Source of the DNA: a virus
Length of the DNA stretch: 64,000 nucleotides
Virus record (IMG/VR): IMGVR_UViG_3300028805_000116
Strand: one strand, 5' to 3'
The notes below the pieces were generated by a model that worked only from the letters and a program-made list of their open reading frames with translations, searched no databases and was not told where the DNA came from. Positions 1,850 to 64,000 of the stretch are shown in pieces (the first letter of the stretch is position 1; each line of letters opens with the position of its first letter). Both the position numbers and the translations under genes were made by a program.

Positions 1850-1923
1850 GAATGAGGGATTTATCACATCCTGTATAAAGGATGCGGAATCTCTTTAAAT
1901 ATGGAAGAAACCTTTTTAAAGGT

Positions 1924-2160
1924 CTACTTCAGGGAAGCAAGATACTCTTCCCAAAAACCATTCTTTCAGAAACATAGAATATGTCTTTCACATCTTAAAC
2001 CATATTGTATGTAGTCATCTTCTATATCATCTATTAGATGTCGTCAGAATGATTGGAGGGTAATTAACGCATTTGTTAATTCTTCTGTTTCAACTATTAA
2101 ACTATCCTTTGTCTGAGAAAGGATTATAGTCTTATCAAAGTCTATTGTTCTCTCTGTCAT
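1924..2160 (-). CDS. Hypothetical protein, ~78 aa (MTERTIDFDKTIIL...)
   Basis: Minus-strand frame with ATG at 2158-2160 and TAG at 1924-1926. In-frame TGA read as Gly. Confidence 0.4.
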
Positions 2161-2178
2161 AGATAGATAGTTTAAGAA

Positions 2179-2958: not shown

Positions 2959-2984
2959 TTTTGTTGGTGGTTATGGGGTAAAAG

Positions 2985-5440: not shown

Positions 5441-6138
5441 TGCCTAAATATATACCATTAAAAAAATGAGAGAAATTCTGAAAGCTTATTGCTTTATGAG
5501 AATGCGAAAAGAGATTAATATGAAAACAATGAGCTTCTGCTCGATATGAGAAATGTAAATGTACTTGTAAAAAGTGAAAAGAATTACGAGTCGCAAGAAC
5601 ATATTTAAATACTGGCCATACTGTAAGTTGTTGATGTGCGAGGTGAATTCCAAAATTAAAACATTGAGACACGTGAAGTAAATTATATAAAATCTATATG
5701 ACCGCTAAATCTAGGTGTAATAACCCAACTTGCTATAAATATAAGCGATATTGATGAAGGTGAATAAAATTTTTACGAGATAGTTATGAAGATTTTAAGA
5801 GAGATATGTGAGAATGATATTTAGAGCACATAAAAAAATATTGAAAAGAAAATACCCAAATAGATAGAATAGATAATAATTGAAATTACTGTAAAGATAA
5901 TTGTAGACGAGTGACTTGTAAAGAAAATTCAAGGAATAGAAGGAGTAACCATTTAGTTGATTTTCGTGGAGAAAGAATTTCGCTAATAGAGGCTTACGAA
6001 AAAGCTTCTCCTAAAATATCTTTCCCAGTCTTTTTATCTAGAATCTATAATAAGTGATTAGATAAAAACGTAGAATTAGCTTTATATTGAACAAATAAAG
6101 AAATAAGAGACTTTTTATCAGTTAATAGTGAAAAGTAA
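5440..6138 (+). CDS. Hypothetical protein, 232 aa. Position just upstream of terL suggests a possible small terminase subunit.
   Basis: Frame open from ATG 5440 to TAA 6136-6138 when TGA is sense. Translationally coupled to flanking genes. Confidence 0.4.
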
Positions 6139-6139
6139 G

Positions 6140-8293: not shown

Positions 8294-8334
8294 AGTTATA
8301 AAAATTTGCCACTTTTATATAATCTAAATATAGG
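8292..8334 (+). promoter_or_regulatory. Conserved promoter-like motif aaagttata...ttatataatctaaatatagg, copy 1
   Basis: Near-identical motif also found at 24511-24556 and 42386-42430, each immediately upstream of a gene start. Confidence 0.5.
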
Positions 8335-8338
8335 AAAA

Positions 8339-8641
8339 ATGTTATTAGAAAGAAAACAAGAGGTTTTAAAAACCTTAGCAGAAAATTATGTAATTATAAG
8401 AGACGAGGATTGAGAACTCCTCTGTCTTCTCGGAAGAGATGATGAATGATATTTTATCTATTCCCTTGAACAGTACAATATTACCAAATCAGACGCAGAG
8501 GCTTTGTTAGACAAGGCAGCCTGAATTGCGCTAGTTCCAGTGGTTGATGAGAAGATTAAATTACAGTATAAAGAAGAACTAGAAAAACACGAAGCTAAAA
8601 TTAGAAACCAGATAGAGGATGATTACTTTGAAGAGGAATAG
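8339..8641 (+). CDS. Hypothetical protein, 100 aa (MLLERKQEVLKTLAENYVIIRDEDGELLCLLG...). Ends with TAG.
   Basis: ATG 8339, TAG 8639-8641, 3 in-frame TGA. Confidence 0.55.
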
Positions 8642-8664
8642 ATTTATATCATAGTATTTTCTAA

Positions 8665-11743: not shown

Positions 11744-14700
11744 ATGGCAGTACAAGATTGTGATGATTTATCAAATATTATTGCTATATGAATATTGTCT
11801 TGAGATGATGATTTAGCTAAAGAGATAGTTAGGCTATCCACACAAAAGAGAGATTCGTTAGTTCGTGCTGGTAAACTTAAATGAGAAGATGCTGTGGAAG
11901 AAGCTACTTGACGAAGTGCTCACGAACTTGAATTAAAAGCCAATTCTGCTGATATAGAGCTCAGAGCTATTGTTCAAGCCAAAATCTTAACTTGAGAAAT
12001 TTGAAATGCGGAAGCGTATGTTGCTTTAGCAGAACAGATAACAAAGTCAGGATGAAGTATGTCTCAACAAATTAGTCTTTTAAATAAATTAAGAAGTGCT
12101 AAGGTTACAGATTTACAGGATATTGCTAAACTACGGTGATGAGCTTATAAAAATTATCCAGCTAAAGCTAAAAAAGAAATGGAAGAAGCTATAGCATCTA
12201 CTATTTCGGCTAACTATAGTATTAGAAAATATTCTGACTTTATGAGTTGAGAAGTTTCTGATTTAAAGACACAACTTAAAAATAAGAAGATAACTCAAGA
12301 ACAATATGAAGAGCAGATGAAATGACTCCATAAGAAGGTTATGGATAGAATAAACGCTTGAGAAAATCCAAAAGATTTTGTCCCTATTGATAAAGAATGG
12401 GATACTATAAAAAGAATTTACTCTACAGAGAATGTAGATTCTGATGCTATTACTGAAGTATTAGAATCCAGATGAAAAGCCTGGGTTCAATATGTAGCAG
12501 CTAGAGAATTATTAGCTGACTGAATGGTTGACGATGAATTACTTAAGGCTTTCGAGTCTTTGTTTGAAATGGATAATTTAGTAGGAGAATTAACTATTGA
12601 TGATATTGCTAAATTCTGAAAATGAGACTTAGATAAATTATTAGCCTTAGCCTTTACAAATACAGAACAATTATATAAAGATTGAATGCTAAGAGAGGCT
12701 TATAGAGCTAAACTTGTTGAGGTAACTTCTTGAATGAAAGTCTCTAAAGAGAATATAGCTAAAGCTACATCTATTATGAATACGATAGGTTTTGCTGAAC
12801 AATGAGCTTCCTTTGCTGATATAGCTACAGCTGACGCCGCAGCGCGTGCGGCTAGAAAGAGATGATTTAAGGTAAAAGATTGAAAAACTTTCTTGAATTC
12901 CTTAAAGTCATTCTTGAGAAAAGAAGAGGATAAAATGTTTGACTGACCTATTGTTATCGATTGAATAGAGATGACGGCTAAGGATATTATCCAAATTATA
13001 TACGATATAACTTGAGATGAAAATATCCTTAAGTTAATTAGAATAGGGTTTTATTCAGACGAAACTATATTATCTATTGCTACATCTAAATTGTTTAATG
13101 ATTCAGATGATGCTGCAAAGAAAATATTAAAATTATTTTCTAAGGCTTGAGATTGAAACACAATTGCCAATACTAGGAATATAGCTTTAAAAGCTATCAC
13201 TTGAGAAGAGATTAGAGAATGAGCAAAAATTGGATTCTTTAATTTTAGAAAAAATCTCTATTTTAAAGATGAATTAGATAGTGCTAAAGCTGAATTCTAT
13301 GATAAGTTAGCAGATAGAAATAAGATGAAGGTAGATTCATCTGATATTGAAGATATAACTCTAGATACTGATGATGCGGACAAAATAGCAGACAAACTAA
13401 GAAAATTTAAATGAGGGTATATTATTGTAAACGATGCTAGATATAAGACTAATAAGGCATTTAATGACGCTCTTAATAAGGTTAATAGTGAAATCAAGAA
13501 TGAAGAGGATAAGATAACTTGTATCTTTCCTAGATGATGAATGTCCTCTAGTTTTGTTATGGAATGAAAACAATTATACTTTAAAACTACAAACGCTAAA
13601 ATTTTCGATAATGTAGCTTGAACTATATCTATTCAATCTATGTGAAAATCTAGGCCGACAAGAGAAATTATTGCTAAAGCTTTTGAGGCTAAGACAGGTA
13701 AAAATGGAGATAAACTTAGATACCAGGCTAGTTATACTAAATGAGTATCTGATAGTCAATGAAGAAAACTTTCAGACCAGCAATACGAATATTTTAAAAA
13801 TTCTGTTGTGAGAGATGAGAATTGAAATTTAACCCCTGTATATCATTGAACTGTGGATAGATTCAATATCCCAGATATGTGAAAATCTAAGTTTGCTGCA
13901 CATTGACCTTGAATGTATTTTTCCACAAGTAGAGATGCTGCAGAAACATATTCTAGATTAAAAGATAATCGCTGGAACCCATTTAAGAAGCGTAGAATAA
14001 TAGAGGCATATCTTGATATTAGAAATCCTATAACTGAAGATACTGTTTGATTCGATGATGCTTGGTTAAATGAATTAGAAGCTCTATGATATATTATCGA
14101 TAGAGATATGGTTAAGAGACAGAAATGAAAGGTAAAAGATATATACAATGTTCTTTATATGTTTCAAGATAAAAAGAAGCAATGACAATTTGTTACAGAC
14201 TTTAAAAGGGTTACTTGATTTGATGGTATCAGAATAGATATGCGTTGAGATGAAAAGTATTGGATAGTATTTGAAGCTAATCAGGTAAAGTATGTAGATA
14301 ATAAATTACCTACAAGTAAGCCTAATATGAAGTATCAGGGAAGGGACAGTAATTTATTGTTTATAGAACAACCTACAGAAAAAGAAATAGATGATTACTT
14401 ATCTGAAAACAACGTGTCAGATATATTATTAAAGAGATTTTGAGAAGCTAAAAGTTTAGACGAGTGATTATTTATTACAAGGGATTGAAAAATAATTTCT
14501 TGAAGATATAGACCAGATATATATCCAGTTAATAAAATTTGGGATGATGCGTGATACAAATTAAATTTAGAACATCCTACTGCTATAGAAACTGCCGTAT
14601 TCGATTTGTGGAAAAATGTGGGGAAGGCTGACACGTATGAAACTGCATCTAAAATGCTTTTGGATAGAGCGATGGAAAAAGAATGATTAATCCGCATTCG

Positions 14701-17700
14701 CCCAAGAATTTTGTCTGATTGAAATGAGCTTATTATTACTATAGCTAGTAAAGAATTAAGCCCACAACAAAAGGCTGTTCTTTCGGAATATATTTCAAAA
14801 TTTAAAGAAGACTTTAGGGAATGAACTAGATGACAGATTACAGTAGAGGCCCAACGGACAGACAATAAGGGGATGTACCCTGGCGAGACTATTAATGTAG
14901 GCTTAAATACCAACATTAACGATATTGATAAAGTATTAAAAGAAAAAATAAATTCTCAAATTAGTGAGCATATTCCTGATGAACAAGTTTTAAAAAATAG
15001 AGCTAAACAAAAGGAGACTTATTGAGAAGGAATATCATTAATAAGGCTATGAGAAAAACAACCATCATTTATGAGACGTTTAGATGATTATGTTTCTCAG
15101 CAAGATGTAGCAGCAACTGATGCTATGAAGGCGCAGATGTTTACAAAAGATAGAACTGTTCAAGAAATAGCTGATGCTTATTGAGTATCTGTTGAGTTTG
15201 TAAAATGAACTAATATGATTGCTTGAGTTGAGGCTTATTGAGCGTATTGAGATGGTATTATCTATTTCACAGATATGGTTAAGGAGAGTACAGCTCCACA
15301 CGAATTGTTCCACGCCATATTTGATATGCACGTAGGTAAAGAACAACACGATAAATTACTCAAACAATGAAGTAAACTCTTCAATGTTAGTGAAGACGAA
15401 ATGGAGGAAATAATGGCAGATAGTTTTGCTCATTGGTTTAATACTTGAGAGTTTATTTACTGAGACGAACTTATAAAGGCTGCTAAAAAGAAGAGACCTA
15501 ATAAAGCAGAAAAATCATTTATAAATAAGGTATTAGAAGTCTTTAAAGACTTAAAGAAATGGTTATGATTAATGGATGACCATAGGGCTGAAGTTAAACA
15601 GATGTTCGACGATATGGTAAATATGAAATATCTACCAGACGCTTGAAAAGCTGTTGAAGCTACGGAAGCTATGATTAAATATAATGATGACTTGGAGAAG
15701 GCTGCTATAAAATACTACTGACAATTACTTTGAGATTACCAAGAAGACTTATCTCCAGAATATATTGAAAGGATTCGCACGAAACTTTCAGAAAAAACTT
15801 GAATTGATTTTAAATCTTTTGACCAAATCCAAGATAAGGCTCTACTATGGCAAAAGGTTGATGAAGCTTTTGTTGTAGATAAATTAGTTTCAGGTAGATA
15901 TGATAAAGAGATTGTAGATGTAGACAATTTAATTAATTGAATAGAGAAACTTACAGATAAAGAGTTAGAGGATGTTATATTCAAAGATTTATGAGTTTTA
16001 AGTAAATGATGAAAGGTTGTAGGTAGAGATACTATTGATGCAATAAGAAACGCATATATAGATTATAAAACTGCCTGAAATGCCGTAGATAGTTTAATAG
16101 CTAAAGGTAAACTTACAGCTTATATACATTGAACTGAGGCGCAGAATGTATCTATGGAAGATATAAGGGCAATATTCCAGAATTGAACATTCGCTCAAAA
16201 ATATAAAGAAATGTTCTTCCCTAATCAAAAACTTACAGCAAAAGAAGAACAAGAGATAATAAAACAAATCAATGATAATATATTTGATACTTTATCAATT
16301 CAGTTTGCTGAAAATTTAGTATCAGCTTGATATGAATTGCCTTTGATAAATATCAAAACATTTATGTATGACTATTTAAATTGAAAGTTAGACTTAAATA
16401 ACAAGTTTGTTGAAGCATTTCTTTATAAAAATAATATTCCATTTTCATCCGATTGATTAAGATGAATTGTAGATAGTTTAATGCCATCAGAATTAAACTT
16501 CAACTATAATTTCTCAAATTATTCATATTGACTTGGGCAAAGGCCTCACGTCTGAGAAAAGGCTGTGTTCAAGGAAGTTGATAATAGGTTTGTTATGGAC
16601 AGTTATTCAGCTTTAGCCTGAATAGAATTAGCTGCTAAGTGATGAATTCCTGAAAATGAGGAAAGGAAAATATTAGAAGAAATCCTTACTAAATATGTAA
16701 ACGAGGTAATTAAATGAGTCAAAGATTGAACGTTAGATTTCAAATGAGCTCAAGAATTAAAACAAGAAGTATGATATGCTTTAGATATGTTTGAACAGGA
16801 TATATTATTGCCTAAATATGGTATATTCTTATCTCCTCAAGAAAAGCAATGACTTATAGGAATGAAATATGACTTGCCTATTTGAGTAAAATGACAAAAC
16901 ATAACTAATGTGACTAAGCAGCTAAACGACATAAAACAGAAGCTCTTAAATAAATATGATAATACGCTATGAAGTATAGTAGAAAATAATGATATTAATG
17001 AAGCAATTCTTAAATGAATTAAAAGTGAAGATGAAAGAATACAAAAGAAAATAGATGCTAGAAGAGATATGTTAGCTGAGAGGTGATGAGTTATCAGAGA
17101 GGTTAATTGACAATATTTGGTATATAATGCTAAACAGGCATTAGAATATGCTTTAGAAGATTTGCCTCCAAGTATTAATTGATTAGAATGACTTAGAGTG
17201 CTATGAAAAGAATGAATTGATAAATTATCTAATCAACAGGCATATGCTTTACTTAGATATATAGAAGCTGCTAAAAGCCTAGATGCCACAGCTTGATATG
17301 CTATAGAGCTTATGTATAAACAAAACCCTATGCTACTTCAATATAATTTCTTTGAAGCATATAGAGTATGAGACCAATGAATTCCTAAAGCATTAGAATG
17401 AAATTCATTAAATTTTGACAAACTATTATCTAGATTAGAAAATACAGCTAAGCTTGATGAAACATCTAAGAAGAATATATTTGAATGAGTTATTAATAAG
17501 TTTAGAAAACAATGATATGTTACTAATGATGACTTAGATGATATTATTGATAAGTGAATAAAAGAAGCATACGCAACATATAAACAGTCGCATATGTCTC
17601 CTAAAGAGATAAAGAAAGCCGTAAATAAAATGAAGAATATTTACAAGAAAGCTTTCGCTCCTTACACTTATTTAAGAGATATTCCTTCTTGAGGAACTGT

Positions 17701-20700
17701 AGATTGAGTAGAATTCAGGAATATAAAATCTAAAGTAAGGGAGGCTATGAAACAGCAATACAATCAAGCTATGGAAGATTTAAAGTCGGTATGAATTACA
17801 AATACGGATTGAATTCAAGATACTATATATCTCACCCTTCCAACTTGACAGAAGATGTCTCTTAGAGATGCTTCTACATTAGATGTTGATAGTTGGAAAA
17901 AATGAATATTTAATGATGAAAGTGTTTATGTAGCTTGAGCTGATGAATTATGAGCTGCTTGAAAGAAGACTGTAGAAGAGCAAAAGGAGTTCAGGAAAAC
18001 TATGGTTAACGAATATGACTCGACATTACAGACTATACTGAACCAATCTCAGTTTATTAGCGAATCAGAAAGAGCATTACAAGGTTCTATTATGAGTGAC
18101 GTAAGGGCTATGTTAAGACAATGAAATCTTACAAACTTAATAGTAGATGCTTTAGATGCCGTAAGTTGACTTAATGAAGAGGCTGCTAGATGAATAAAGG
18201 ATTATCTTATCTGATGGAAGTGAAACGTTTCATTCTGAAAATGGAAGTCTTCTCAGATTATAGAGAGAAATGAATTAGTAAAGAAAGCATACGCACAATA
18301 TTATGCTATGGATTTGTCTAAACTTAATAAGGTAACTCCTTGAACAAAAGCAGAAGACTTAGCTTTAAGATTAGCAAGATACTTTAAAAATTTGGAAAGA
18401 TTATTAGGTAGTGCAGATTGAGTAACTTGATGTACTACAAGTAATCAATTAAATAGAGCGTTCTTCCATATAGGTGAAGTTGTTATGAATGTGGATAGTG
18501 TAAAGTGAATTTTCTGATTATTATCTGCGGTAGAACAAAACCAGATATTAAAGTTGTTTAAGTTTGCTAAGTGAGATTTAAGAAAACAAGCTGAGGTATT
18601 TATTCGTAAAGGTAAAGGTAATTTTACTGAGAGCCTTTGATGATATAGAGACTACGCAGAAGATATTAGTTGAATTACTAGAGATGAGTTCAATGAGATT
18701 TTCTGAACATCATTTAACGAGGACGATTTTAAGAAAATACTTCAATGACTTACAGGTTTCTCATTGGTATGATGAGTTACTAAACCTGTTATGAAAGCAT
18801 TGAATTTCTTGAGCTGAACTAATTTCATATTTAGAGCTGCAATGTCTTACCCTTGACAGCTACTTACAATTCCTTTACAAAGCACAGCATATTTCTTAAA
18901 ACAGATATGATTTGAAAGAGCTTTGGATATTGATAGCTTATCTGATATTGACGAAGTTAGAGTTCATTATTGAATTTTGGATTGAGCATATAACGAAATT
19001 AATTGGTTTAATAAAAAATATAGGGTTAGTCCAGATGATGTTAGAGTAGATAGTTACTATAATAGGTACTGAATCCCTGATGTAGAATGAATTTATAAAA
19101 CTACATCCATAGAGAGCAGTGATGATTACATAAATATGTATGCTAAAATTAATAATCAAACTGCATCAAGTATCAGTTCTACAAATAAATGGATAAGACA
19201 ACTAGACCCATATAAAGATAATGCAAATAACATTATAGACTGATTATTCGCTAGAAACTTTAAAAACATAGCGTTCCAAAAAGCTATAAGACAGAATGAC
19301 TTTATGCAATTTTCTTCAGCAAAAGAGTTCTTAGCCTTTATGGAAGACCCTACGGTATGAGGTTCTGTAAAGCAAAAACTATTAGATAGAGTTGCTGCTT
19401 ATTCAGGTAGAAACTTTAGAAATATCCTTTGATTAGGATTCTGATGAATTGATAGAGCTGTATGATGAAGTGGATTTGGAAACATAATGTACTGACTTAT
19501 GCAGATGTTTAACTTTAGATGAAGTTGGTGACAGAATATATTTAAACAAGCTTGAGCTGCTATTAAGACTTGACTAAAGATAGTGAAAGCAAATCCTTGG
19601 TTAAGTAGAGAATGAAGAGATGCCGTTGGTAGATATATAGCTACACAGCCAGAATTTATGAATTTTGTCTGAGCTTTATTTAATGACTTAAAACGAAGTT
19701 GGAGGTTACAAAGATTCCAAGATAATTGAAGATGGCCAGATAACGAAGATATGTATGTGACTACAGAGTTCTGAGATGTATTTGACGCATATTCAGCTTT
19801 AGATTTTATAGATTACTTAACAGAATCTTTAAGTCTTACTTCACAATTATTCCAGTGAATACAATCATTCTGACCTGCTAGACCAATATTAGAATGAGTA
19901 GAAAGCGCATATAAATCATATATGGACCCTACAATTTATAAAGATACATTCTGAATTTGAGCTTTCTTTAATGCTTTATGAAAGAACTTCTGAAGACAAT
20001 GGAAACCACATAACTGGATTGCTAAAGCATTATGAGCCTTAACTACAGATTGACCTGAGGCATTCTGGACATATGTACAAAATGAATGGTATAAATTATC
20101 ATTTGGTTCTGTAAGGTATATGGTTAATGAAGATAGTAATTCTTATGGATATACTTTCGAAATGACTTGACAACAATGATGAATTCCGTCTATTATAATG
20201 TGAGAATGAAAACAAGGTTCTGATAAAAATTTCTCTTATGAAATAGATAATACAGAGACTTGGGAGACTATAAAACAATTATTTAGTAGCTGAAACTCTT
20301 GGGACGATAGACTTACATATGCCTGAAATCTTTGAAAAGCATTTGTTAACTGAAGTCAGTTCTTTAGTTTATGGAAGAATGCTTGAAAGGCTTGGAATAG
20401 GAATGCTCCAAGTTATTATACAGCAGATGATTTAGCAGATGTTTTACAAAATACTGAAGCTTGATTAGAGTTTTACCAGAAATGAATTGTAACTCCTAAA
20501 ACAAAAGAAGAAGCTGAGATATTCTTTGATACAATATTAGAAAATTCTAAGTTCCGTCCTTGAAGTAGTAATTTTACTAAATCATTAATCAATTATGAGG
20601 ATTATTGACATATGAATGGTAAAGAGAAATGAAATGAAGCTGATGCTGAAATGGAACTTTGGCTAGACCATATGAAACACGTAACTGATGACCATTGAGT

Positions 20701-21952
20701 TATAAGAAAAAATTGAAGCGAGGAGACGGTTGACCCATCTTGGAATAAATTAATTAATGCTGTTAGAAGTTGAGCTTACAATGGAACTTATACAACAAAC
20801 TTGATTTATAACTATGCTAAGACTTGGTTAGACAACCATTCGTCTGACCCTAACTATCAGCTTTATCTTAAACTCTTATGACAATGACAAGCTCATAAAT
20901 TAATTGAGTCTACACAAGACGATATTATAAAAGCTTGGAATGCTGGTAAGAAATGAGTTGATAATAAATGGACGGAGACTGAGTTCAAAAACGCCTGATT
21001 AAGGAGAGATATGTTATTATCTATGTGAAACACTCCTTTACCTTGAGATACTGAAACATTCTTTGATAAACTACAAGTTCTAGATGAGGATAATGCCACA
21101 GTTGCAGCATTACAAATCATTCAGAACCAAGCAAAAGAATGAGATAGAAAAATTATTGATAAGTTCTTTAATGTAAAAGAGAATGATGATTGAACAAAGT
21201 CTGTTACATTAAGAAGACAATATGAAAGTACATTAACTCAGATTTGAGCTGTTGCTAAAGCTATTGATGAATGAAATCTTGAGAGGGCAATATCTGAATC
21301 TTCTATTCTTACAAATATGTATAAGAACCAAGACCCATCAGGAGCTGTAACTGCTACATTGATTGATAGTGTTGTTAATAGAATATACGATACAGATAGT
21401 TTTTCTCCTGAGCAAAAGCAAGAAGCTATTATAGCATTATTCCATCATAATAAAGAATTCATACAAAAGAATCCAGAAAAGCTAAGAGAATTATTATGAG
21501 ATGAATATGATACTTATGCTAATTATATGAATCAGATGCTTTATCAATGGGATTGAGCATTATTGTCTACATTAGAAAGTATGCAGACTAGCTGAAAAGG
21601 TTCATCTTGAACTGCTAAGAAAACTAAAGCTACTTCTAGTGAATTGAAGAAATTAGCCGCCTCTCTAGGTAATGAATGATGAGCTAGAGGAACTTGAACT
21701 GTATGAAGCACAAAATCTTGGGTACCTGTTATTATTAAGTGAGCAGACTTAGTAAAGGAGTTATGAGTAAAATGATATACTCCTAATAAGGTATCATTGT
21801 CTATAAATGCTTATAAGCCTAAGATAGATTTAAGTATAGCTAAAGATATTAACAGAAAAGTTAAATGACCTAAGACACAACAGATATCAAACAAAAAACA
21901 ATTAAGTAAACTTGAAGATAAGGTTACAAAAGCTACTGAAGCAGAAAGTTAG
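11744..21952 (+). CDS. Giant protein, ~3402 aa, polyvalent-protein-like. HExxH zincin-like motif PHELFHAIFDMH at about 15296-15330. H-Y-E-class ADP-ribosyltransferase-like motif VYHGT...GPGMYFSTS near 13850-13950.
   Basis: Single frame from ATG 11744 to TAG 21950-21952. Same frame mod 3 as track ORF 21317-21499 which lies inside it. No TAA/TAG over 10.2 kb, >150 in-frame TGA. Confidence 0.6.
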
Positions 21953-22095
21953 TTAGTACCATAAACAAAAATAAAATAAGACATACAAAATATCTCAGAT
22001 GGAGTATTCTCCATCTTGAGAGTTGTATGTGTCTTAAATTATTTTTCATAACGAAAGTACCTGATATTTCTTTTATATTTTTATGCCAATAAATT

Positions 22096-30338: not shown

Positions 30339-30695
30339 ATGAACGAATTAGATGCCATACAAGAACAAATGGCCGCTCTAGGTATTGATGTGTCTCCAGA
30401 GGCACAGCAGGCCCCTATGTATGACGAATCTGCTATGCTTACTCCAGAAGATGAAGCAATGTTCGCTCCTGGGTGAGAATACGCTATTGAAGAAGAAATT
30501 CCAACAGAGACTATGCCAGCAGATGTTATGCCAGCAGAGGGAGAGCTTCCACAAGAAATGCCAGCTTATGATATCGAAGAGCTTAAAATAGACATCCAAC
30601 CTATGTTACAATGACTTCCTAAGGAAGAATTTGCTAACTTAATTATTTGGATGGCAGAACAATTTAATTTATTAAATGCAGAAAACAATGCCTAG
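30339..30695 (+). CDS. Acidic hypothetical protein, 118 aa
   Basis: ATG 30339, TAG 30693-30695. Overlaps the next start (ATGCCTAG). Confidence 0.45.
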
Positions 30696-34804: not shown

Positions 34805-37800
34805 ATGGCAAAAGCACGTCAACAGTATTTTGCAGATGAAGTAACTTTACAGAAAGAGAACAGGGATTTCGCTATACAACCTGAACTCGTTGAGAAACTA
34901 GAAAGTATAGAAGCTTGAGCTCAAGTTAATGTAATCGAAACAGTTAAAGTGAACTGAGAGGCATTAACTCCAGATGAGAATAAAGCTGTTGATGTGAGTG
35001 TCCCTTTAGTAGAGGACACTCTTTATTCAACAGACCCAGATAAGGCTCTATCTGCAAATCAATGAAAAGTATTATATGAATATATACAAAATTTAGCCTC
35101 AAGAGGTAGATATCTTTCTAACTGGAATACAGTTACTTGATTGCCTACTACTAATCCAGTTGATAATCCATATCAATATCGTGCTTGAGACTATTATGTA
35201 GTAAGTAATGTAGCTGCCGAAGGCGGTACTAACTATAGACCTAATGGTAGTACTTATTCTTGGGGAGTAGCTTCAACTACAGTAGAAACTGAAACTGTAA
35301 AAGTTTGAGATTATTATACATATGATTGACAGCATTGGCTTTTACTTGTAAATACGGCTAGAGAAATTGCTATAGATAGTAGTTTATCTACAACAAGTAC
35401 AAACCCTGTAGAGAATAAAGTAATTACAAATGCTCTAAATACTAAACAGAATAATATCACAGATTTAGAAACTATACGTAGTTGAGCTGCTTTATGAGCA
35501 ACAGCATTACAACCCTGAGCTAGTCTATCAGAATTATCTTGAACTTCTGATAACATAACTCAATGAACTACAAATCTATTTATGACTACAGCTGAGAGAA
35601 GCAAATTATCTAATCAAAGCTGAGTTAATACTTGAGATGAAACTCAAACAACAATAAAAAATAAATTATGACAAGCGTCTGCTTCAACAGATGGTTATCT
35701 TACTTCAACAGATTGGAATACGTTTAATAATAAACAATGAGCCATTTCCGATTTAGAAACAATTAGAAGTAATGCCTCTGCTTGAAAGAATGCAAGTGAT
35801 ACAATAGCAACTTATGGAGATGTAGTTACACACGATGCTGATGAATTTGCCACAGCTTCACAATGAGCTAAGGCAGATACAGCATTACAAAATGGAGACA
35901 ATGTATCAGAGCTAGTTAATGATGCTTGATATATAACAGATGCTTATCACGACGATACAAAACAAGACAAATTAATAGCTTGAGCTAATATTCAAATTGC
36001 TGCAGATTGAAAAACAATTTCTTCTACAGATACAACATATGTAGCTTGAGACTTTGACATAAAAGACCTAGCTGATAGTACTTGACTTAGAACAGAATGG
36101 AGCTGAAAGCAAGATGAATTAATAGCTTGAGCTAATATCCAAATCGCCGCAGACTGAAAGACTATTAGTGCTACAGATACTAAATATACAGCTTGACCTG
36201 GTATTAGTATTTCAAATAATAATGTTATTTCTAATACACAGACAAGTGCTGAATGGTGAAACATCCAAGGAACACTAAGTAATCAAACAGACTTACAATT
36301 AGCTTTAGATGATAAACAAGATACTCTTACAGCTTGAGCCAATATACAAATAGCCCAAGACGGGACAATCTCTGCTACAGATACTAAATATACAGCCTGA
36401 ACTTGAATTTCAATTGATGCTAATAATGTAATAAGCAACACACAAACATCAGCTGAATGGTGAAACATAACTTGAACTCTTTCAGACCAAACAGACTTGC
36501 AAACTGCTTTGGATGCTAAGCAAGATGATTTAATTGCTTGAGCTAATATCCAAATCGCAGCAGATTGAAAAACAATCTCTGCAACAGATACTCAATATGT
36601 CGCTTCAGACTTTGATATTAAAGACTTAGCAGACTCTACAGGAAAGAGAGCTTCTTGGGATGCTAAACAGAATGCTATTTCAGACTTAGCTACGATTAGA
36701 AGTAATGCATCTACAGCTATTCAACCTAATGATAATGTTAGTGAATTAACAAATGATGCTGGTTACATTACAAGTGCAGATATTCCTACATTAGATACAG
36801 CTATGTCTGATAGTTCTACAAATGGAGTGCAGAATAAAGTAATTAAATCCTATGTAGATACTCAAGTACAAGAAGCTACAAGTGGTGCGGTGAGCGATAC
36901 AGCATATTGAACAAGTTGGAATTGAATTACAGGTATAGCTCCTTCTAAGAATGCTGTCTATGATAAGATTTCTGCTATGGATACAACTATAGCTTGAAAG
37001 CAAGCCACGATTAGTGATTTATCCACTATTAGAGCAGGAGCTTGAAAATGAGCTACAGCTGTACAGCCTTGAGACAATGTATCAACCCTTACAAATGATG
37101 CAGGCTTTATCACTAAAGCTGTAAGCGACTTAACAAATTATTATACTAAGAATGAAACATATACAAAATCTGAAGTAGCTGATTATGTAGCAAACTTTGC
37201 TTGATTTAAAGTAGTTGCACAGTTACCTACTACAGATATTAAAACAACAATAATTTATTTGCTTTGACCTGTTGGAACTTGAGCAGATAAATATGAAGAA
37301 TATATTTACTCAAATAATGCTTGGGTAAAGATATGAGAGACTTCTGTGGATTTAACAAATTACTTTAATACATCTACAGATAACTCAGATAGTATTACTC
37401 AAGGTTCTACTAATCTATTTCTAACAAGCGCAGAAAGAACTAAGCTTTCTAATACAAGTGGAACTAACACAGGAGATGAAACTAAAACAACTATCCAATC
37501 TAAGTTAGGTGCTGCGACTTCTAGTAATGATTGATATTTAAGTAGTGCTGATTGGTCGAAGTTTAATAGTAAGGCTGACACAACAATTATAAATGACACG
37601 GCTTATGCTTCTAGTTGGAATGCAGATACAACTCACGCCCCTACAAAGAATGCTGTGTATGATAAGCTGAATGCTATGGATACGACTATATCAGGTAAAG
37701 CTGATGCTACAGATGTAAATGTAAAATATTTTAAATTGTCCTCTACATCTGATACAACTCACGCACAGGAAGCTGTAGATTGGTTTTTAGCTTGAAAAAT

Positions 37801-39538
37801 TCCTGTTCTTCAAGTTGGAGATAATGATTTCTATTATTTAGATAGAAACGTTCCATTAGAATCAATTAATAATCCAACATTAACATTTTCAAATCAAAAT
37901 TATGAAAGCTATCAATATGTAATAATAGATGTATCTAATTGAACAGTAGATAGTATACGTACAGCAATTCAATCATTTGTGGCAACATCCTGAAATCAAA
38001 CAGTTAATTGACAAAAAACATTTGGGACTTCACCAATAGTTCCTTCTAAAACTTCTGATGCCACTAATACTTGAACAGCAATAGCAACAGAAGCACAGGT
38101 ATATAAGAAACAAGATAAACTAGCTACACAAACAGCTTATACATCTAAGGGTACTGCTAGCAAAGTACCTCAGATTACAACAAATAGTCTGTGACAGGTA
38201 ACTTGAATTACTGAGGTTGATATATCCTATCCTAGTCAAGTCTCAGATGTGGCTTATGCTTCTAGCTGGAACTGAGTTACAGGAACAGCTCCTTCAAAGA
38301 ATGCTGTCTACGATAAAATCTCTGCTATGGATACAACCATAGCTTGAAAACAAAATACTCTTTCAACACAAACTGCATATACTTCTAAATGAACTTCTAC
38401 TAAAGTCCCTCAGATAACAACTAACACTTTATGACAAGTAACTTGAATTACAGAAGTTGATATACAAGCTTGAGAAACTTACAACGCTTGAGAATGAATA
38501 GAAATCTGAAATGACTACTCAGCTATGCAATGACCTGCACCAGATGGTTTTCACGTGCCACTTAATACAGAATGGCAAGCTGTTTATGATGTATGGACAG
38601 CTTTAGGTGGATGAAGTTCAGACTGAACTAATTTCTGAATAGCATTAAAGTTGCCTTTCGCTGGTTACCGTGACGCCTCGTCTGCTGGTGTTTACAGTCA
38701 GGGTACCGACGGGAACTATTGGTCTTCTTCTCGTAGCGATGCGAATCGTGCCTACTACCTGTACTTATATTCGAATGCTCCTGACCCCCAGAGTTTCGAC
38801 TACCGTGCGTACGGTTTCTCTGTACGTTGTTTCAAGAACTCCCCAACTGTACCTACATCTTCTTGGACAAAACTATATTGAACAAGTATAGAAAGTTGAT
38901 GAATATTCTGGAGTAGTACAGATTGACTTATATCATTATCAAGCGACTGACAGACTTGGATAACAATAGCTGATAAGAACTTATGAGCCACAACTGTATG
39001 GAACAGCTGAGACACATTAAGTGAAGCTAATTGTGGTAAATATTTTCAACGATGAAATAATTATGGTTTCCCACGGACTTGAAGTGTAACAACTTCTTGA
39101 ACTCAAGTAGATGCTAGTAGTTATTGACCTTGAAATTATTACTCAAGTGATACATTCATAAAATATAATTGAAGATGGGACACAACAGATAATTGAAATC
39201 TTTGGTGATGAGTAACGTGAGTAGTAAGTAACGCTATCACAAACACAGGAGTACTTAGTGTGAATGGAGAGACTGGAGCAGTAAATCTGACTATACCAAC
39301 GATTAGTACAATAACAGTAACTCTGACTGCTGCTTGATGGTCTTCTAATGAGCAAACTGTTTCTGCTATAGGAGTTACTGCAAGCAACACAGTTATAGTT
39401 TCTCCTGCACCAAGTGATATAGCTGATTATGCTGACTGTGGTGTTTATTGTTCTGCTCAAGGTAGTGGAACTTTAACATTTGGATGTGATACAGCACCAG
39501 ATGGAGATATAGTAGTGAATGTACTAATAATGAGTTAA
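34805..39538 (+). CDS. Large tail fibre / receptor-binding protein, ~1577 aa. Many internal repeats (ANIQIAADGKTISATDTKYTAG..., SWNADTTHAPTKNAVYDK...). C-terminal FISUMP-like domain (GYRDASSAGVYSQGTDGNYWSSS...GFSVRCFKN).
   Basis: ATG 34805. Same frame as track ORF 38651-38881. TAA 39536-39538. Confidence 0.6.
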
Positions 39539-39550
39539 AAAAGTCTGATT

Positions 39551-39621
39551 TCTCCTATCGTTTAAGTCTAGGAACGCTACCAGAAAGGGTAGAAATGAGG
39601 GGTAAGAACTCTCTAGGAGAA
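39551..39621 (+). ncRNA. tRNA-like cloverleaf element, copy 1. 7-bp acceptor tctccta/taggaga, D-arm, anticodon-arm ctacc/ggtag with 6-nt loop, T-arm gaggg/ctctc. Flanked by direct repeats agtctgattt.
   Basis: Manual folding. Homologous to the copy at 41644-41714 with compensatory base changes in two stems. Confidence 0.4.
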
Positions 39622-39657
39622 AAGACTAGTCTGATTTATTTCTTATGTTTAATAATT

Positions 39658-41643: not shown

Positions 41644-41714
41644 TCTCCCATCGTTTAAGTCTAGGAACACCATCAGTAAGGATGGAAATGAAAGGTAAGG
41701 TCTTTCTGGGAGAT
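41644..41714 (+). ncRNA. tRNA-like cloverleaf element, copy 2. Acceptor tctccca/tgggaga, anticodon-arm ccatc/gatgg, T-arm gaaag/ctttc. Flanked by direct repeats aatcagattta.
   Basis: See 39551-39621. Covariation preserves the pairing. Confidence 0.4.
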
Positions 41715-41921
41715 TTAATCAGATTTATTTCTTTTCTTTAACCAATGACCGTAACTCTTACTTTTACCCTCTTTATAGTTCTGTGTATCCTAGTGGGGTA
41801 TGAGATATTTAGAAAATAATAAAAAGCTGAATGACTAAACTATTTGAGAGAAAAGCAACGCTACTAGATACAAGTCGAACTATATATTAACTCAGCCTTT
41901 TACCCCTTCCTTTAACCTAAT

Positions 41922-46331: not shown

Positions 46332-46383
46332 AAATCGCAGGTACTTTCGTAGTCAAAAATAAAATAAGACACGTTAATATATT

Positions 46384-46420
46384 AAGGTGGATAATTGTTC
46401 CACCTTTAATTTATTTCATA
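46384..46420 (+). terminator. Rho-independent terminator (aaggtgga-taattgt-tccacctt + T-run). Part of a ~50-bp element repeated at 48733-48785.
   Basis: 8-bp perfect stem followed by taatttatttc. Confidence 0.5.
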
Positions 46421-48716: not shown

Positions 48717-48820
48717 AACCATAGGTAGTACCGTTATCAAAAATAAAATAAGACACATAAAAATATTGAGGTGGACAATTATTCATCTCAGATAAAATTT
48801 TACATTAAAATAGATAACCT

Positions 48821-61656: not shown

Positions 61657-62246
61657 AATGTATATTGGTAAAAATATAAAAACTAATATTTAGGATGAGG
61701 CAATTTCCTTATCCAGCTTTTAAGCCAATCGCTTATCCATTCACTAAATTCCATATCTGAAGCAAGGTCAATCACAACAAATAAAAAGAGTAATCAAACA
61801 ATTATAAGTCCTATCATAGGTCCAGTTCAACAGTCTTCACACATAGTAATATAATTAAGAAATAAAATTATTCTTTATCTAATTTTTTATGTAGCCATTC
61901 TTTAGCTCTATCCTGTATGATTTCTGATAATTCCCCACCAAAAAGTCACAAATCAACTATTATAAATATCACAGAGAGAAATCCTCCAATAAGGATTATT
62001 GCTACTACAGTAAGAAAAGTTCAAAGTATTAGTCACATAGTAATATAATTAAGAAATAAAATTAATTTTCTTTTGGCTTACGTTCATCTAACCAATGCTT
62101 AGTCCAAGCCTTTAGATAATCTGAAAGGGCTCAACCTAATAACATATCATCTACAACTCCTGCTAATAATAATGTTAGGAGTAGTATTATAGGTAGCATA
62201 AATATAACGAATATCATTTGTATATAATAATAATATAAAAGTCTGA

Positions 62247-62519
62247 TTACTCTCACTCTTTAATTTCTTTCCTCATTTGATTTTTAACTTCATCATACCA
62301 TTTAGAATAATTCCATTCTTTATATAGTGCCATTTGATTAGAAGTTGGCGATAGTAAATAAATCTCTGCTAATCTTAACATAAGTTTATCTTTCAGCTTT
62401 TTATTTTCTTCTTCTAGCATATCTATATACTTATTCATCTTGTCCAAAAACTTTTTATCTTTTTCATCTTCACAGATAAATGAATATCTTGTTTTAGTCC
62501 AATTACTTTCTACTTTCAT
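62247..62519 (-). CDS. Small hypothetical protein, 90 aa
   Basis: Track ORF 62253-62519 extended by two codons through TGA to TAA 62247-62249. Confidence 0.4.
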
Positions 62520-62549
62520 TTTTAAAAGTAAATAATATAAAAGTCTGAT

Positions 62550-62742
62550 TTAGTCTGCATTTAGAATTACAACATCTTTTAATGCACCTCAATTTTCCAT
62601 ATCATTTACTCGGTTCTCTTCTACACTTTCTAATGTGGTAGCCTCATACTCACTCTTAAAACTACCATTTTCTCGGTATATCCATACCTCTTTATCTTGT
62701 GGCATTTTCTGTAATTTTTCTATAAGTTCTTTTACTGTCATT
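62550..62742 (-). pseudogene. Small gene MTVKELIEKLQKMP|QDKEVWIYRENGSF... disrupted by a 1-nt frameshift near 62697-62703
   Basis: The N-terminal 16 codons are in one frame and end at TAA 62692-62694. The rest continues seamlessly in the -1 frame to TAA 62550-62552. Confidence 0.35.
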
Positions 62743-64000
62743 TCCTTTAGGTAAATAATATAAAAGTCTGATTTAGTCTAAAGCTGAAATTACGTTTATA
62801 AGTAAACATACAAAAGCAAACAACAACACTAATGGAACTCATACAATAGGGCATATAACACACAATGCTGTCATAGCAAAGGCTGCCACAAATATACAAA
62901 TAGTAATTAAAAGTCAGATTATTATTTTCATTTCCATAGGTAAATAATATAAAAGTCTGATTATAATGTAATAATATCTCCATCAACAAGGAACACATCA
63001 AATACATTATCTACTTTAATATGTTCGACTTTACTATCCCATCTCCTGATGTCTGGAATTGCCATATTCCAAATCTCTCCTAATTCATATTCAAACGAAA
63101 ATCATAATTCTGATTTCTTTTCTTTCCATCCCCACCATTTCTTGTAGTATGGTTTCCAATATTCTCAACCAGTGACTATATGGTTTTTGAATTTTTTTAA
63201 TCTTCGTTTCATACTTTAATATTACTAAGTAAAAAATCCTCTAACTTATCTTCATCACATAAGGCACTTTCTATCAAGTAGTATTGGTATTCATTTTCTA
63301 ATATACATCTATCTCAATTGGTTTTCCCATCTCGTTGCCAAATATGTTCTTCATATCAAGGTCTTTTTGGTCGCATTCCATTCTCACACACGAATTGCCA
63401 TAGTCAGCTTTCTTTCGCAACCAATGCTCTAATAGATTTTTCATAAAAAGTTAATCAGAATATAGTTCTTTTAGAAAAACTAATATATTTAGTTGTATAA
63501 TAAGCATTTCTTAAATGTGGTATTCATCGTGGTTTCCACCCTCTTTGGATAAGTCTATTCAATAGTTGTTCTAATTCGTCTACCATAGGTTATAAACTAA
63601 GTAAATAAATAACAGTTTCTCCTGCCGCTACACTAATAAACATCCCACCTAATACAAACCACCAAGTGAATAAATCATATTTGCATTGTATATGCCAACA
63701 TATAAAAAATACAATCATTGAGACAGATACTCAAGTTATAAATATTTCTCTTGTCATAGGTTATTAAATTAAGTAAATAAATCTGACTACTCTCTATAAT
63801 CATCATAAACCTCTAATGTCCATTGTCATTTTATATCTTTACCAATTATAATTTCATAATCTTTTTCCTCTACAAGTTTTAATAATTCTTCAAGAGTATT
63901 TATCTCTATATCTTTATATTTTCAAAAGTTATGTGTATAATGTAATTTGAATTTCATTCTGATTTTTATTTAAGATATGAAATAAGGTCTTCAATAGGTG

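What the first reader, a model, noticed from the sequence alone, without database searches (positions are those of the whole stretch)
38560..38880. FISUMP-like (Fibrobacter succinogenes major paralogous) domain at the C-terminus of the 1577-aa tail fibre, encoded by a GC-rich segment free of TGA codons
The peptide ...PAPDGFHVPLNTEWQAVYDVWTALGG...FAGYRDASSAGVYSQGTDGNYWSSSRSDANRAYYLYLYSNAPDPQSFDYRAYGFSVRCFKN matches the FISUMP pattern (GW+P, EW, FSALPAGYR, YWSST, GFSVRC). The core 38640-38870 is ~50 % GC against ~33 % elsewhere. It uses GGT/GGG rather than TGA for glycine. This suggests recent horizontal acquisition of a carbohydrate-binding module from a standard-code organism.
Basis: partly seen in the sequence, partly recalled or inferred. 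Interest (0 to 1): 0.7.

Follow-up and report, generated by a model that had tools for sequence, protein, structure and literature searches.

The report
Retroelement-type variable region in tail fibre
The GC-rich, TGA-free patch in this recoded phage's tail-fibre gene is not recently imported foreign DNA but carries the adenine-poor codon signature of a region rewritten by a diversity-generating retroelement, although the template and reverse transcriptase that would rewrite it are not in the window.

Summary
Window 38648-38839 is the GC maximum of the 64 kb (0.52). It has no TGA and gives a weak FISUMP hit (PF09603 27.3 bits, TIGR02145 36.2 bits, both below cut-off). The domain is not C-terminal: about 230 aa follow.

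The interpretation (recent transfer from a standard-code organism) is not supported. The anomaly is loss of adenine: third-position A is 2/64 against 40% elsewhere, and T is unchanged. All 14 distinct homologous copies from other TGA-recoded phages share it, while the rest of the same module is full of TGA.

In those copies the variable codons are NNC/NNT and the conserved codons lack A. This is the signature of mutagenic retrohoming by a diversity-generating retroelement (DGR), of the known CLec2 (DUF1566/Fib_succ_major) class.

The module is a circular permutation of a domain that is a verified DGR target in a TGA-recoded bacterium (L168: 38% identity, E 6e-33; 16 of 17 TR-VR mismatches at template A).

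No template repeat or reverse transcriptase was found in the window or on related phage contigs. Whether the region is still diversified, from a distance or in trans, or is a young relic stays open.

I rate it a new variant of a known kind, of moderate interest.

The parts
34805..39538 (+). Tail-fibre-like gene, 1577 aa under code 25 (TGA = Gly), 84 in-frame TGA
   Evidence: PF22337 phage tail fibre repeat near the N-terminus, E 1.7e-9. Neighbouring genes hit portal and tail-fibre PHROGs.
38510..38857 (+). C-terminal half of the FISUMP/DUF1566-like (CLec2-type) module (aa 1236-1351), placed first in this protein
   Evidence: PF09603 and TIGR02145 match profile positions 62 to the end. It is conserved at 66-77% identity in hundreds of homologues.
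38648..38839 (+). Adenine-depleted, GC-rich, TGA-free compositional island
   Evidence: GC 0.52, A3 2/64 against 0.40, T3 unchanged. The same island is present in all 14 close homologous DNA copies.
38666..38830 (+). Variable-region-like segment, 55 codons (YRDASSAGVYSQGTDGNYWSSSRSDANRAYYLYLYSNAPDPQSFDYRAYGFSVRC)
   Evidence: Across 14 copies the hypervariable codons are NNC/NNT, with the third base C or T in 12-14 of 14 and up to 11 codon types per site. Only 2 of 53 invariant nucleotides are A. Pairwise differences at codon positions 1/2/3 are 0.36/0.28/0.23, against 0.20/0.13/0.33 and 0.25/0.20/0.36 in the two flanks. It aligns over 182 nt with a verified TR.
38825..38841 (+). 3' boundary sequence CGTTGTTTCAAGAACTC, almost identical to the end of the verified VR of L168 (CGTTGTTTCCAGAACTC); a possible homing-boundary (IMH-like) element
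   Evidence: Alignment. No GC-rich hairpin follows it in the window (DNA fold z = -0.09). One follows the L168 VR (z = -2.04).
38858..39226 (+). N-terminal half of the same module (aa 1352-1474: ...ISLSSDGQTWITIADKNLGAT...YFQRGNNYGF...NLWGGVTGVV), placed second, so the module is circularly permuted
   Evidence: Stand-alone homologues have the opposite, canonical order. Re-joining the halves extends the PF09603 match to profile positions 6-187 and raises the score from 27.2 to 31.6 bits. The re-joined module is collinear with the L168 DGR target, 38% identity, E 6e-33.
39227..39535 (+). C-terminal domain of about 103 aa of unknown function that follows the module
   Evidence: Conserved in full-length homologues P0022, P0066, P0081 and P0090. 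No Pfam hit.

Best explanation
The segment 38666-38830 is a variable region (VR) of the kind written by diversity-generating retroelements (DGRs). It belongs to the known CLec2 class, which overlaps weak DUF1566/Fib_succ_major matches.

It sits in the presumed receptor-binding module near the distal end of a tail fibre of a code-25 (TGA = Gly) phage.

How a DGR works (established knowledge): a reverse transcriptase copies a template repeat (TR), misincorporates opposite template adenines, and the cDNA replaces the VR. Positions meant to vary are therefore encoded as AAC/AAT in the template. Positions meant to stay constant must be encoded without A.

This explains every compositional oddity of the patch:
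- no A at third positions;
- CGT, GGT, GGG, TCT, TCG, GCG and CTG in place of the genome's usual AGA, TGA, GGA, TCA and GCA;
- hence higher GC and no TGA.

Shown here:
- the adenine-specific depletion;
- the NNC/NNT variation pattern among homologues;
- homology to verified DGR targets and templates;
- the circular permutation of the module.

Inferred:
- the varied residues form the ligand-binding face of a C-type-lectin-like fold;
- changing them changes host-receptor specificity;
- a cognate TR and RT exist, or recently existed, outside the 64-kb window (elsewhere in the genome or in trans).
For: 1. Adenine-specific depletion. A3 is 2/64 against 0.40 (P 4e-12) with T3 unchanged. A-ending synonymous codons are 2/36 against 425/867. 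It is the only place in the window where the coding strand falls below 20% A.

2. In 14 distinct copies from recoded phages the hypervariable codons are NNC/NNT. The scaffold has 2 A among 53 invariant nucleotides. Codon-position differences are inverted relative to the flanks.

3. L016 and L017 have flanks 83-92% identical. They differ at 14 VR codons in positions 1/2 and at 3 in position 3.

4. VR identity is bimodal against flank identity: it is either about 0.9-1.0 or at the scaffold floor of about 0.45-0.55. This fits all-at-once rewriting.

5. The scaffold DNA pattern also hits genuine TR-VR pairs. L026 has 15/15 mismatches at template A. Another 38 classical CLec2 templates were found, 35 of them with an RT motif detected in the retrieved locus, about 0.9 kb downstream. 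Their Asn codons fall on this family's variable positions.

6. L168 is a TGA-recoded bacterial chromosome with a verified DGR: TR-VR of 182 nt with 16 of 17 mismatches at TR-A, followed by bAvd and RT. Its target is collinear with the re-permuted window module (38% identity, E 6e-33). Its TR aligns with the window VR over 182 nt (69%, E 5e-27). The 3' boundary sequence is nearly identical.

7. A related recoded phage (L007) carries a complete DGR next to its copy of this module, so the lineage uses DGRs.

8. Wu et al. 2018 (PMC5758913) define exactly this target class: weak, mixed DUF1566/DUF823/Fib_succ_major hits, CLec2 VRs, 14% of DGRs.
Against: - No TR and no RT are in the window. This covers 38.6 kb upstream and 25 kb downstream of the VR, tested by blastn, a 3-mismatch pattern search, an adenine-tolerant scan and an RT motif scan.
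- None was found within 10 kb in about 15 related loci, on whole viral contigs of 77 and 48.6 kb, on a 15.7-kb contig overlapping the window's 3' end, or among 126 template-derived ORFs.
- The DGR in L007 has a different, CLec1-type template that is not cognate to this VR.
- The VR is internal, not at the end of the ORF.
- No GC-rich hairpin follows it.
- The same related phage in five assemblies has an identical VR, though the samples may not be independent.
- Three invariant codons (two Tyr, one Gln) keep an A.
- Scaffold synonymous divergence (0.22) is only moderately below that of the flanks (0.31-0.35). A3 of 0-0.11 also fits a young relic.
- The fold could not be confirmed: the structure model has pLDDT 39.7.
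Confidence: 0.8

Rival explanations
1. Relic variable region. The segment was written by a DGR in a recent ancestor, but this phage has lost the template and reverse transcriptase. The region is now a static receptor-binding loop that still carries the adenine-free codon signature. This is a sub-case of the best explanation that differs on present activity.
For: - No TR or RT anywhere in the window or on related contigs.
- Identical VR in five assemblies of one related phage.
- No hairpin after the VR.
- A few third-position A already appear in scaffold codons (GTA, TCA, GGA, CCA).
- A3 of 0-0.11 matches what drift would give at the observed synonymous divergence.
Against: - L016 and L017 share 83-92% identical flanks and come from one sample, yet differ by DGR-type changes at 14 codons.
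- The VR scaffold is decoupled from flank divergence. Window against L019: flanks are about 80% different at the protein level, while the scaffold is as close as in any other pair.
- All 14 copies keep A3 at or below 0.11.
- The four-fold variation GTA/GTC/GTT/GTG at codon 52 is what a template GTA would give. L168's TR has GTA at that codon.
Confidence: 0.4
2. Diversification in trans. The variable region is rewritten by a DGR that is not encoded near it. The DGR could lie in a distant part of a genome larger than 100 kb, in the code-25 host bacterium, or in a co-resident element, and would use the conserved 3' boundary sequence.
For: - A code-25 bacterium (L168) has a DGR whose target, template scaffold and 3' boundary are homologous to the phage's.
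- DGR components work in trans experimentally, and phage-associated DGRs have non-adjacent targets up to about 50 kb away (PMC5758913).
- Recent DGR-type differences exist between close phages that lack a cis template.
Against: - The L168 template is not cognate: 69% identity, one 3-nt indel, and 28 of 53 mismatches are not at A.
- No cognate template was found in any collection searched.
- No hairpin lies next to the VR.
- I did not find a precedent in the papers I read for a host DGR rewriting a phage gene.
Confidence: 0.2
3. One reading: a carbohydrate-binding FISUMP module recently acquired by horizontal transfer from a standard-code, higher-GC organism and not yet adapted to the phage's composition.
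For: - GC is 0.52 against 0.32, and there is no TGA.
- The scaffold DNA motif is shared with Bacteroidales genes and standard-code phages.
Against: - The island is about 190 nt inside the domain. The rest of the same domain has 21 TGA and GC 0.35.
- All 14 distinct homologous copies from recoded phages have the same island.
- Only A is depleted and T3 is unchanged, which a 50%-GC donor would not give.
- There is no near-identical DNA in the phage collection, and the Bacteroidales genome hits share only the central scaffold motif.
- A code-25 bacterium encodes the same A-free scaffold.
Confidence: 0.04
4. Ordinary diversifying selection plus recombinational cassette swapping of a receptor-binding loop, with no retroelement involved.
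For: In the more distant, non-A-depleted branch of the family the same loop is swapped by recombination. L166 against L167 shows sharp boundaries with 100% identical flanks and differences of 21/15/29 by codon position.
Against: - It does not explain the fixed third base with up to 11 codon types per site.
- It does not explain the near-absence of A in invariant nucleotides.
- It does not explain the loss of the genome's favoured A-ending and TGA codons.
- The recombining branch has normal composition and 4-5 TGA in the segment.
Confidence: 0.05

Closest known systems
CLec2-class DGR target proteins (category 'd' of Wu et al. 2018: DUF1566/DUF823/Fib_succ_major; type example Legionella LdtA)
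   Same: - Weak, mixed FISUMP/DUF1566 profile hits over the VR.
- The ...G.NG.YWSS...N.NFNS...NP.NNNNR.NGFSVR... scaffold.
- AAC/AAT-derived variable codons.
- Adenine-free constant codons (PMC5758913).
   Different: - Here the domain is circularly permuted, so the VR lies 236 aa before the C-terminus.
- It is part of a 1577-aa phage tail fibre in a TGA = Gly genome.
- No TR, Avd or RT is nearby.
DGR of the TGA-recoded bacterium on locus L168 (target 5396-6571, VR 6379-6560, TR 10051-10232, bAvd, RT)
   Same: - Same special domain variant, including the insertion after YxQWGNNxGF. The window module, once re-permuted, is collinear with it at 38% identity, E 6e-33.
- The template aligns over the whole VR.
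- Near-identical 3' boundary.
- Same genetic-code context.
   Different: - L168 has canonical domain order, with the VR at the ORF end followed by GC hairpins.
- It has a cognate TR with 16 of 17 mismatches at A.
- It is a chromosomal gene with an N-terminal hydrophobic stretch (a possible signal peptide, not tested), not a tail fibre.
Bordetella phage BPP-1 Mtd and other phage tail-fibre DGR targets (CLec1 class), including the DGR on related locus L007
   Same: A receptor-binding protein at the tip of a phage tail fibre, varied by adenine mutagenesis to change tropism. L007 shows that recoded phages of this group carry such a system.
   Different: - A different VR class: FGGxWxxGxxAG...IGARL.
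- The VR is at the C-terminus, with TR and RT immediately downstream.
Fibrobacter succinogenes major paralogous domain (PF09603 / TIGR02145)
   Same: Motifs P.GWH.P..EW, YWSS and GFSVRC. The canonical-order homologue passes Pfam's cut-off.
   Different: - The window protein scores below both curated cut-offs.
- Its halves are in reversed order.
- It carries an insertion of about 60 aa after the YxQWGNNxGF motif, between that motif and the PAPxGFHVP motif.

Membership tests
FISUMP / Fib_succ_major (PF09603, TIGR02145) | Profile score at or above the curated cut-off | tested here: not met
   Window protein: PF09603 27.3 bits against 33.9, TIGR02145 36.2 against 41.65. A natural canonical-order homologue (L007 gene) scores 36.2 against 33.9 on PF09603, so it passes. 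The family is related, but this protein is sub-threshold.
FISUMP / Fib_succ_major (PF09603, TIGR02145) | Collinear match over the whole domain | tested here: not met
   Native order matches only profile positions 62-187. After re-joining the halves in canonical order, positions 6-187 match. The domain is circularly permuted.
FISUMP / Fib_succ_major (PF09603, TIGR02145) | Signature motifs (P.GxH.P..EW, AGxR, YWSS, GFSVRC) | tested here: met
   PAPDGFHVPLNTEW, FAGYR, NYWSSS and YGFSVRC are present and conserved across homologues.
DGR variable region / target protein (CLec2 class) | A template repeat that differs from the VR only at template adenines | tested here: not met
   None in the window by blastn, pattern and adenine-tolerant scans. 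The same screens recovered TRs in the controls L026, L007, L168 and about 70 other loci.
DGR variable region / target protein (CLec2 class) | DGR-type reverse transcriptase (and Avd) in the neighbourhood | tested here: not met
   No RT motif was found in any frame of the window under code 25. Pfam on seven mid-sized ORFs of the window found none. The RT of related L007 scores RVT_1 E 1.9e-18.
DGR variable region / target protein (CLec2 class) | Variation among copies confined to AAC/AAT-derived codons (positions 1-2), with adenine-free invariant codons | tested here: met
   14 copies: NNC/NNT with the third base fixed in 12-14 of 14; 2 A among 53 invariant nucleotides; position differences 0.36/0.28/0.23 against flanks 0.20/0.13/0.33.
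DGR variable region / target protein (CLec2 class) | Homology to a target with a verified TR-VR pair | tested here: met
   L168 target: 38% identity over 230 aa, E 6e-33. L168 TR against window VR: 69% over 182 nt, E 5e-27.
DGR variable region / target protein (CLec2 class) | VR at the 3' end of the target ORF | tested here: not met
   The VR ends 236 codons before the stop in the window. It is at the C-terminus in the stand-alone homologues P0103, P0107, P0119 and P0120.
DGR variable region / target protein (CLec2 class) | 3' homing boundary (IMH) and adjacent hairpin/cruciform | tested here: inconclusive
   The boundary sequence matches L168's VR end at 16 of 17 positions. No stable hairpin follows in the window (z = -0.09), whereas one follows the L168 VR (z = -2.04).
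DGR variable region / target protein (CLec2 class) | C-type-lectin-like fold with the variable residues on one face | not testable with these tools
The model built from mistranslated homologues has pLDDT 39.7. Sequence search of the PDB gave nothing.
Code-25 (TGA = Gly) phage | In-frame TGA at conserved Gly positions | tested here: met
   Coding span rises five-fold when TGA is read as sense. TGA aligns with GGN 30 times and with TGG 0 times.

The most novel reading that the evidence does not exclude
These code-25 phages may keep DGR-type variable regions in their tail fibres without encoding the cognate template or reverse transcriptase. The regions would then be rewritten in trans by a DGR of the TGA-recoded host bacterium or of a co-resident element. 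Such a DGR's target domain, template scaffold and 3' boundary are homologous to the phage's. Host-range variation of the phage would then depend on a retroelement it does not carry.
Probability: 0.12. Interest if true: 0.85.

Novelty: new variant of a known kind. Interest (0 to 1): 0.55.

Why it matters
It replaces a horizontal-transfer story with a mechanistic one. A local island that is GC-rich, A-poor and free of reassigned stop codons, inside a recoded AT-rich gene, can be the footprint of adenine-directed retroelement mutagenesis. That footprint can be read from one sequence alone.

It extends the CLec2 DGR target class in three ways: to tail fibres of TGA = Gly phages, to a circularly permuted domain, and to an internal variable region.

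It also exposes a set of phage contigs, up to 77 kb long, whose variable regions show recent DGR-type changes but have no template in cis. This poses a concrete, testable question about trans-acting or recently lost DGRs in CPR bacteria and their phages.

On the practical side, standard pipelines mistranslate these genes (W for Gly) or fragment them, so such targets are easily missed.

Tried and rejected
- Template in the window: blastn with word size 7, a 3-mismatch pattern search, an adenine-tolerant ungapped scan and a self-blast screen for A- or T-biased repeats all found nothing.
- RT in the window: motif scan in six frames under code 25 and Pfam on seven mid-sized ORFs found none.
- Nucleotide matches of the segment in the phage collection: none.
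- Scaffold pattern in the viral, metagenome and genome collections: only VRs in recoded phages, plus classical TR/VR pairs in standard-code organisms.
- Relatives of the L007 RT (80 loci): all have CLec1 VRs, so they are irrelevant to this VR.
- Template-specific pattern: 38 classical templates, none with the phage scaffold.
- Predicted-template peptide search: 126 template ORFs, none cognate, though it led to L168.
- PDB sequence search: only chance hits.
- Extending beyond the window:
  - The 5'-edge gene led to a mosaic relative, not the source contig.
  - The 3'-edge look-ups failed.
  - An exact-match search gave only 1.7 kb more, with nothing in it.
  - The window's own VR is not in IMG/VR.
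- Rfam and tRNA scans of the window: empty.
- The closest 'scrambled' protein pair (P0110/P0099) turned out to be a recombination swap in the non-A-depleted branch, so it is not evidence for DGR action.
Full report
**Context.** The window is 32% GC and is coding only if TGA is read as sense. Long-ORF span rises from 15.5 kb to 77.9 kb. TGA is glycine: paralogous repeats inside the fibre align TGA with GGN, and in homologous copies TGA aligns with GGN 30 times and never with TGG. This is genetic code 25. That code is known from Absconditabacteria and Gracilibacteria and from many of their phages (PMC10746230). The finding lies in a 1577-aa gene, 34805-39538 (+). The gene has a phage tail-fibre repeat near its N-terminus (PF22337) and sits in a structural block with portal-like and tail-fibre-like neighbours. 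The window has no tRNA and no Rfam family.

**Checking the observation.** The quoted peptide is present, and both FISUMP profiles hit it: PF09603 at E 5e-6 and 27.3 bits, TIGR02145 at E 9.7e-9 and 36.2 bits. Both are below their curated cut-offs, and both match only profile positions 62 to the end. The segment 38653-38844 has the highest GC of the whole window (0.52, z = 4.0). It contains no TGA, and its five Gly codons are GGT or GGG, although TGA supplies 67% of Gly codons elsewhere in the gene (P = 0.004).

Two corrections are needed. First, the domain is not at the C-terminus, because 231 residues follow it. Second, the 80-codon TGA-free run is only the third longest in the gene. The strong anomaly is different: adenine is missing.
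- Third-position A is 2/64 against 0.40 in the rest of the gene (P = 4e-12).
- Third-position T is unchanged at 0.44, and second-position A is unchanged.
- Among amino acids that have an A-ending synonym, A-ending codons are 2/36 against 425/867 (P = 4e-8).
- It is the only place in the window where the coding strand of any gene drops below 20% A.

**Is it a recent import?** No. A search with the C-terminal 380 aa found 889 homologues. The conserved unit is a module of about 235 aa (fibre aa 1240-1474), at 66-77% identity for the best hits. The database versions carry W wherever the window has TGA, so they come from TGA-recoded genomes called under code 4. In the GC-rich segment they carry G, not W. 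DNA of 14 distinct copies from other recoded phage contigs shows the same island in the same 63 codons: GC 0.47-0.51, A3 0.00-0.11, TGA 0/63. The rest of each module has GC about 0.35, A3 about 0.4 and 14-21 TGA. More distant homologues (33-38% identity) have normal composition and 4-5 TGA in the segment. There is no similar DNA in the phage collection.

**What the segment is.** A codon alignment shows that the segment is the hypervariable part of an otherwise conserved module, and that it varies in an unusual way.
- Across the 14 copies the variable codons are NNC or NNT. Up to 11 different codons occur at one site while the third base is C or T in 12-14 of 14 copies.
- The constant codons (CGT, GGT, GGG, TGG, TCT, TCG, GCG, CTG, CCT...) contain no A. 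Only 2 of 53 invariant nucleotides are A.
- Pairwise differences at codon positions 1/2/3 are 0.36/0.28/0.23 in the segment, against 0.20/0.13/0.33 and 0.25/0.20/0.36 in the flanks.

This is what mutagenic retrohoming by a diversity-generating retroelement produces. That mechanism is established knowledge: the template encodes variable residues as AAC/AAT, the reverse transcriptase randomises template adenines, and constant positions must be encoded without A. Avoidance of TGA, GGA, AGA, TCA and GCA follows from this, and so does the raised GC.

**Controls and homology to real DGRs.** The scaffold DNA pattern, searched in public collections, also hit genuine DGR pairs in standard-code organisms. 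L026 has a template with 17 AAY codons, and all 15 of its mismatches to its VR lie at template adenines. L037 is another example. A template-specific pattern found 38 classical CLec2-type templates, 35 of them with an RT motif detected in the retrieved locus, about 0.9 kb downstream. Their consensus aligns without gaps to the window's segment, with template Asn codons on this family's variable positions.

Translating the template predicted from the codon table and searching proteins returned 126 short ORFs called across templates. Three were looked up, and each is followed by bAvd and an RT gene.

One of them, L168, lies on a TGA-recoded bacterial chromosome that carries EF-Tu and ribosomal proteins; the single TGA in L3 aligns with a conserved Gly. 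It has a complete DGR whose 182-nt TR-VR pair has 17 mismatches, 16 of them at template A.
- Its target protein contains the same special domain variant as the window.
- Its template aligns with the window's segment over all 182 nt (69% identity, one 3-nt indel, E 5e-27).
- The 3' boundary sequence is almost identical: CGTTGTTTC[C/A]AGAACTC.

Wu et al. 2018 describe exactly this target class: weak, mixed DUF1566/DUF823/Fib_succ_major hits, 'CLec2' VRs, 14% of DGRs (PMC5758913). Ye 2014 lists Fib_succ_major among DGR target domains (PMC4159848).

**Circular permutation.** Many homologues are stand-alone proteins of about 250 aa. In them the half containing ...ISLSSDG.TW.TIADKNLGAT...YYQWGNNYGF... 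comes first, and the half containing PAPSGFHVP...VR...SVRCFKN...TKLY* comes last. That is the canonical FISUMP order, with the VR at the C-terminus. In the window the order is reversed: the C-half is at 38510-38857 and the N-half at 38858-39226.
- Re-joining the window's halves in canonical order extends the PF09603 match from profile positions 62-187 to 6-187 and raises the score from 27.2 to 31.6 bits.
- The natural canonical-order homologue scores 36.2 bits, above the cut-off.
- The re-joined module is collinear with the L168 target over 230 aa (38% identity, E 6e-33).

This explains the partial profile hit and why the VR is internal here. I could not confirm the fold.

**The missing template.** The window has no second copy of the segment and no reverse transcriptase. 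The same screens recovered TR-VR pairs in about 70 control loci. No related recoded-phage locus has a cognate template within 10 kb. None is present on whole contigs of 77 and 48.6 kb, nor on a 15.7-kb contig that overlaps the window's 3' end.

A related phage, L007, does carry a complete DGR directly after its copy of this module: RT with RVT_1 E 1.9e-18, and a TR-VR pair with 16/16 mismatches at A. But that template is CLec1-type and serves the next gene. All 80 relatives of that RT go with CLec1 VRs.

**Active or relic?** Evidence for recent DGR action:
- L016 and L017, from one sample with flanks 83-92% identical, differ at 14 VR codons in positions 1/2 and at 3 in position 3.
- VR identity is bimodal relative to identity outside the VR.
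- The VR scaffold is decoupled from flank divergence, as in the window against L019.

Evidence against present activity:
- One related phage has the same VR in five assemblies.
- No GC hairpin follows the window's VR, unlike L168's.
- Scaffold synonymous divergence (0.22) is only moderately below that of the flanks (0.31-0.35), and A3 of 0-0.11 fits a young relic as well.

I could not see beyond the window.

**A useful contrast.** In the non-A-depleted branch of the family the same loop is exchanged by recombination. In L166 against L167 the flanks are 100% identical, the boundaries are sharp, and the differences by codon position are 21/15/29. The loop is therefore a diversification hotspot by two routes, and the A-free signature marks the retroelement route.

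**Verdict.** The FISUMP-like call is right in kind. The horizontal-transfer interpretation is not supported.

The segment is best explained as a CLec2-class DGR variable region in a circularly permuted receptor-binding module of a code-25 phage tail fibre (confidence 0.8). Whether it is still being rewritten, and by what, is open. My rough estimates are about 0.4 for a relic, about 0.2 for trans action, and the remainder for a distant cis element.

It is a new variant of a known kind. The new elements are the permuted, internal VR, the code-25 phage context, and the absence of a template in cis across several long contigs.

Noticed in passing
window 39551-39641 and 41644-41734: A 91-nt direct repeat (75% identity) with internal inverted repeats. 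One copy lies just after the fibre stop codon and the other after g026. Together they bracket two genes: g025 (Laminin_G_3, E 6e-10) and g026, whose N-terminal region resembles g025's but had no Pfam hit. It could be a regulatory leader or a cassette boundary.
   Followed up: no
window 21950-22016, 46338-46404, 48722-48788: A family of three intergenic repeats of about 67-74 nt sharing ...CAAAAATAAAATAAGACAC...GGTGGA..., each after a long gene. They look promoter- or terminator-like (families D11 and D19).
   Followed up: no
window 62209-62962: Four copies of a 40-nt element ending AATAATATAAAAGTCTGATT, spaced 190-300 nt apart, in front of small minus-strand genes. They may be early promoters (family D13).
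   Followed up: no
window 30339-30695: The second GC peak of the window (0.49) is a 118-aa, very acidic protein rich in E, A, P and M. This probably reflects amino-acid composition. The coding strand does not fall below 22% A there.
   Followed up: partly
window 11744-21952: A single 3402-aa ORF under code 25. Related contigs carry ORFs of 4224-4499 aa with a GreA/GreB-like N-terminal hit.
   Followed up: no
L007 7214-11130 (IMGVR_UViG_3300028242_000055): A related recoded phage has a complete CLec1-type DGR immediately downstream of its stand-alone FISUMP-type gene. The target is 8073-9269 with VR 9120-9258, the TR is 9585-9723 with 16/16 mismatches at A, and the RT is 9917-11130.
   Followed up: yes
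L168 5396-11922 (JGI 3300042609, Ga0466722_215913, 85.9 kb): A TGA-recoded bacterial chromosome with a CLec2-type DGR in the order target-...-TR-bAvd-RT. GC-rich hairpins lie directly after the VR. Under the standard code the RT and GatB genes are fragmented in the source annotation.
   Followed up: yes
proteins P0121-P0240: Pfam PF26707 (DUF8237) is precomputed on many ORFs of 50-110 aa that appear to be translations of DGR template repeats (Asn-rich). The three that were looked up are each followed by bAvd and RT. The family may largely describe template-derived pseudo-ORFs and VRs.
   Followed up: partly
L166 10001-11602 and L167 1674-3251: In a more distant branch of the module family, with normal composition and TGA present, the same loop segment is swapped by recombination between genes whose flanks are 100% identical.
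   Followed up: yes
window 1-3642 and L170 (ENA ERZ27256871 k141_1027000, 110.6 kb): The replication module (DnaB-like, DUF6291) is 99.6% identical to a 110-kb contig that then diverges into an integrase and HTH module. This points to mosaicism and a temperate relative.
   Followed up: partly
window 35954-38464: The fibre contains several families of internal paralogous repeats: 122-195 nt units at 35954-36633, 90-nt units at 36914, 37613 and 38264, and 117-nt units at 38108 and 38348. They were useful as internal evidence that TGA = Gly.
   Followed up: partly
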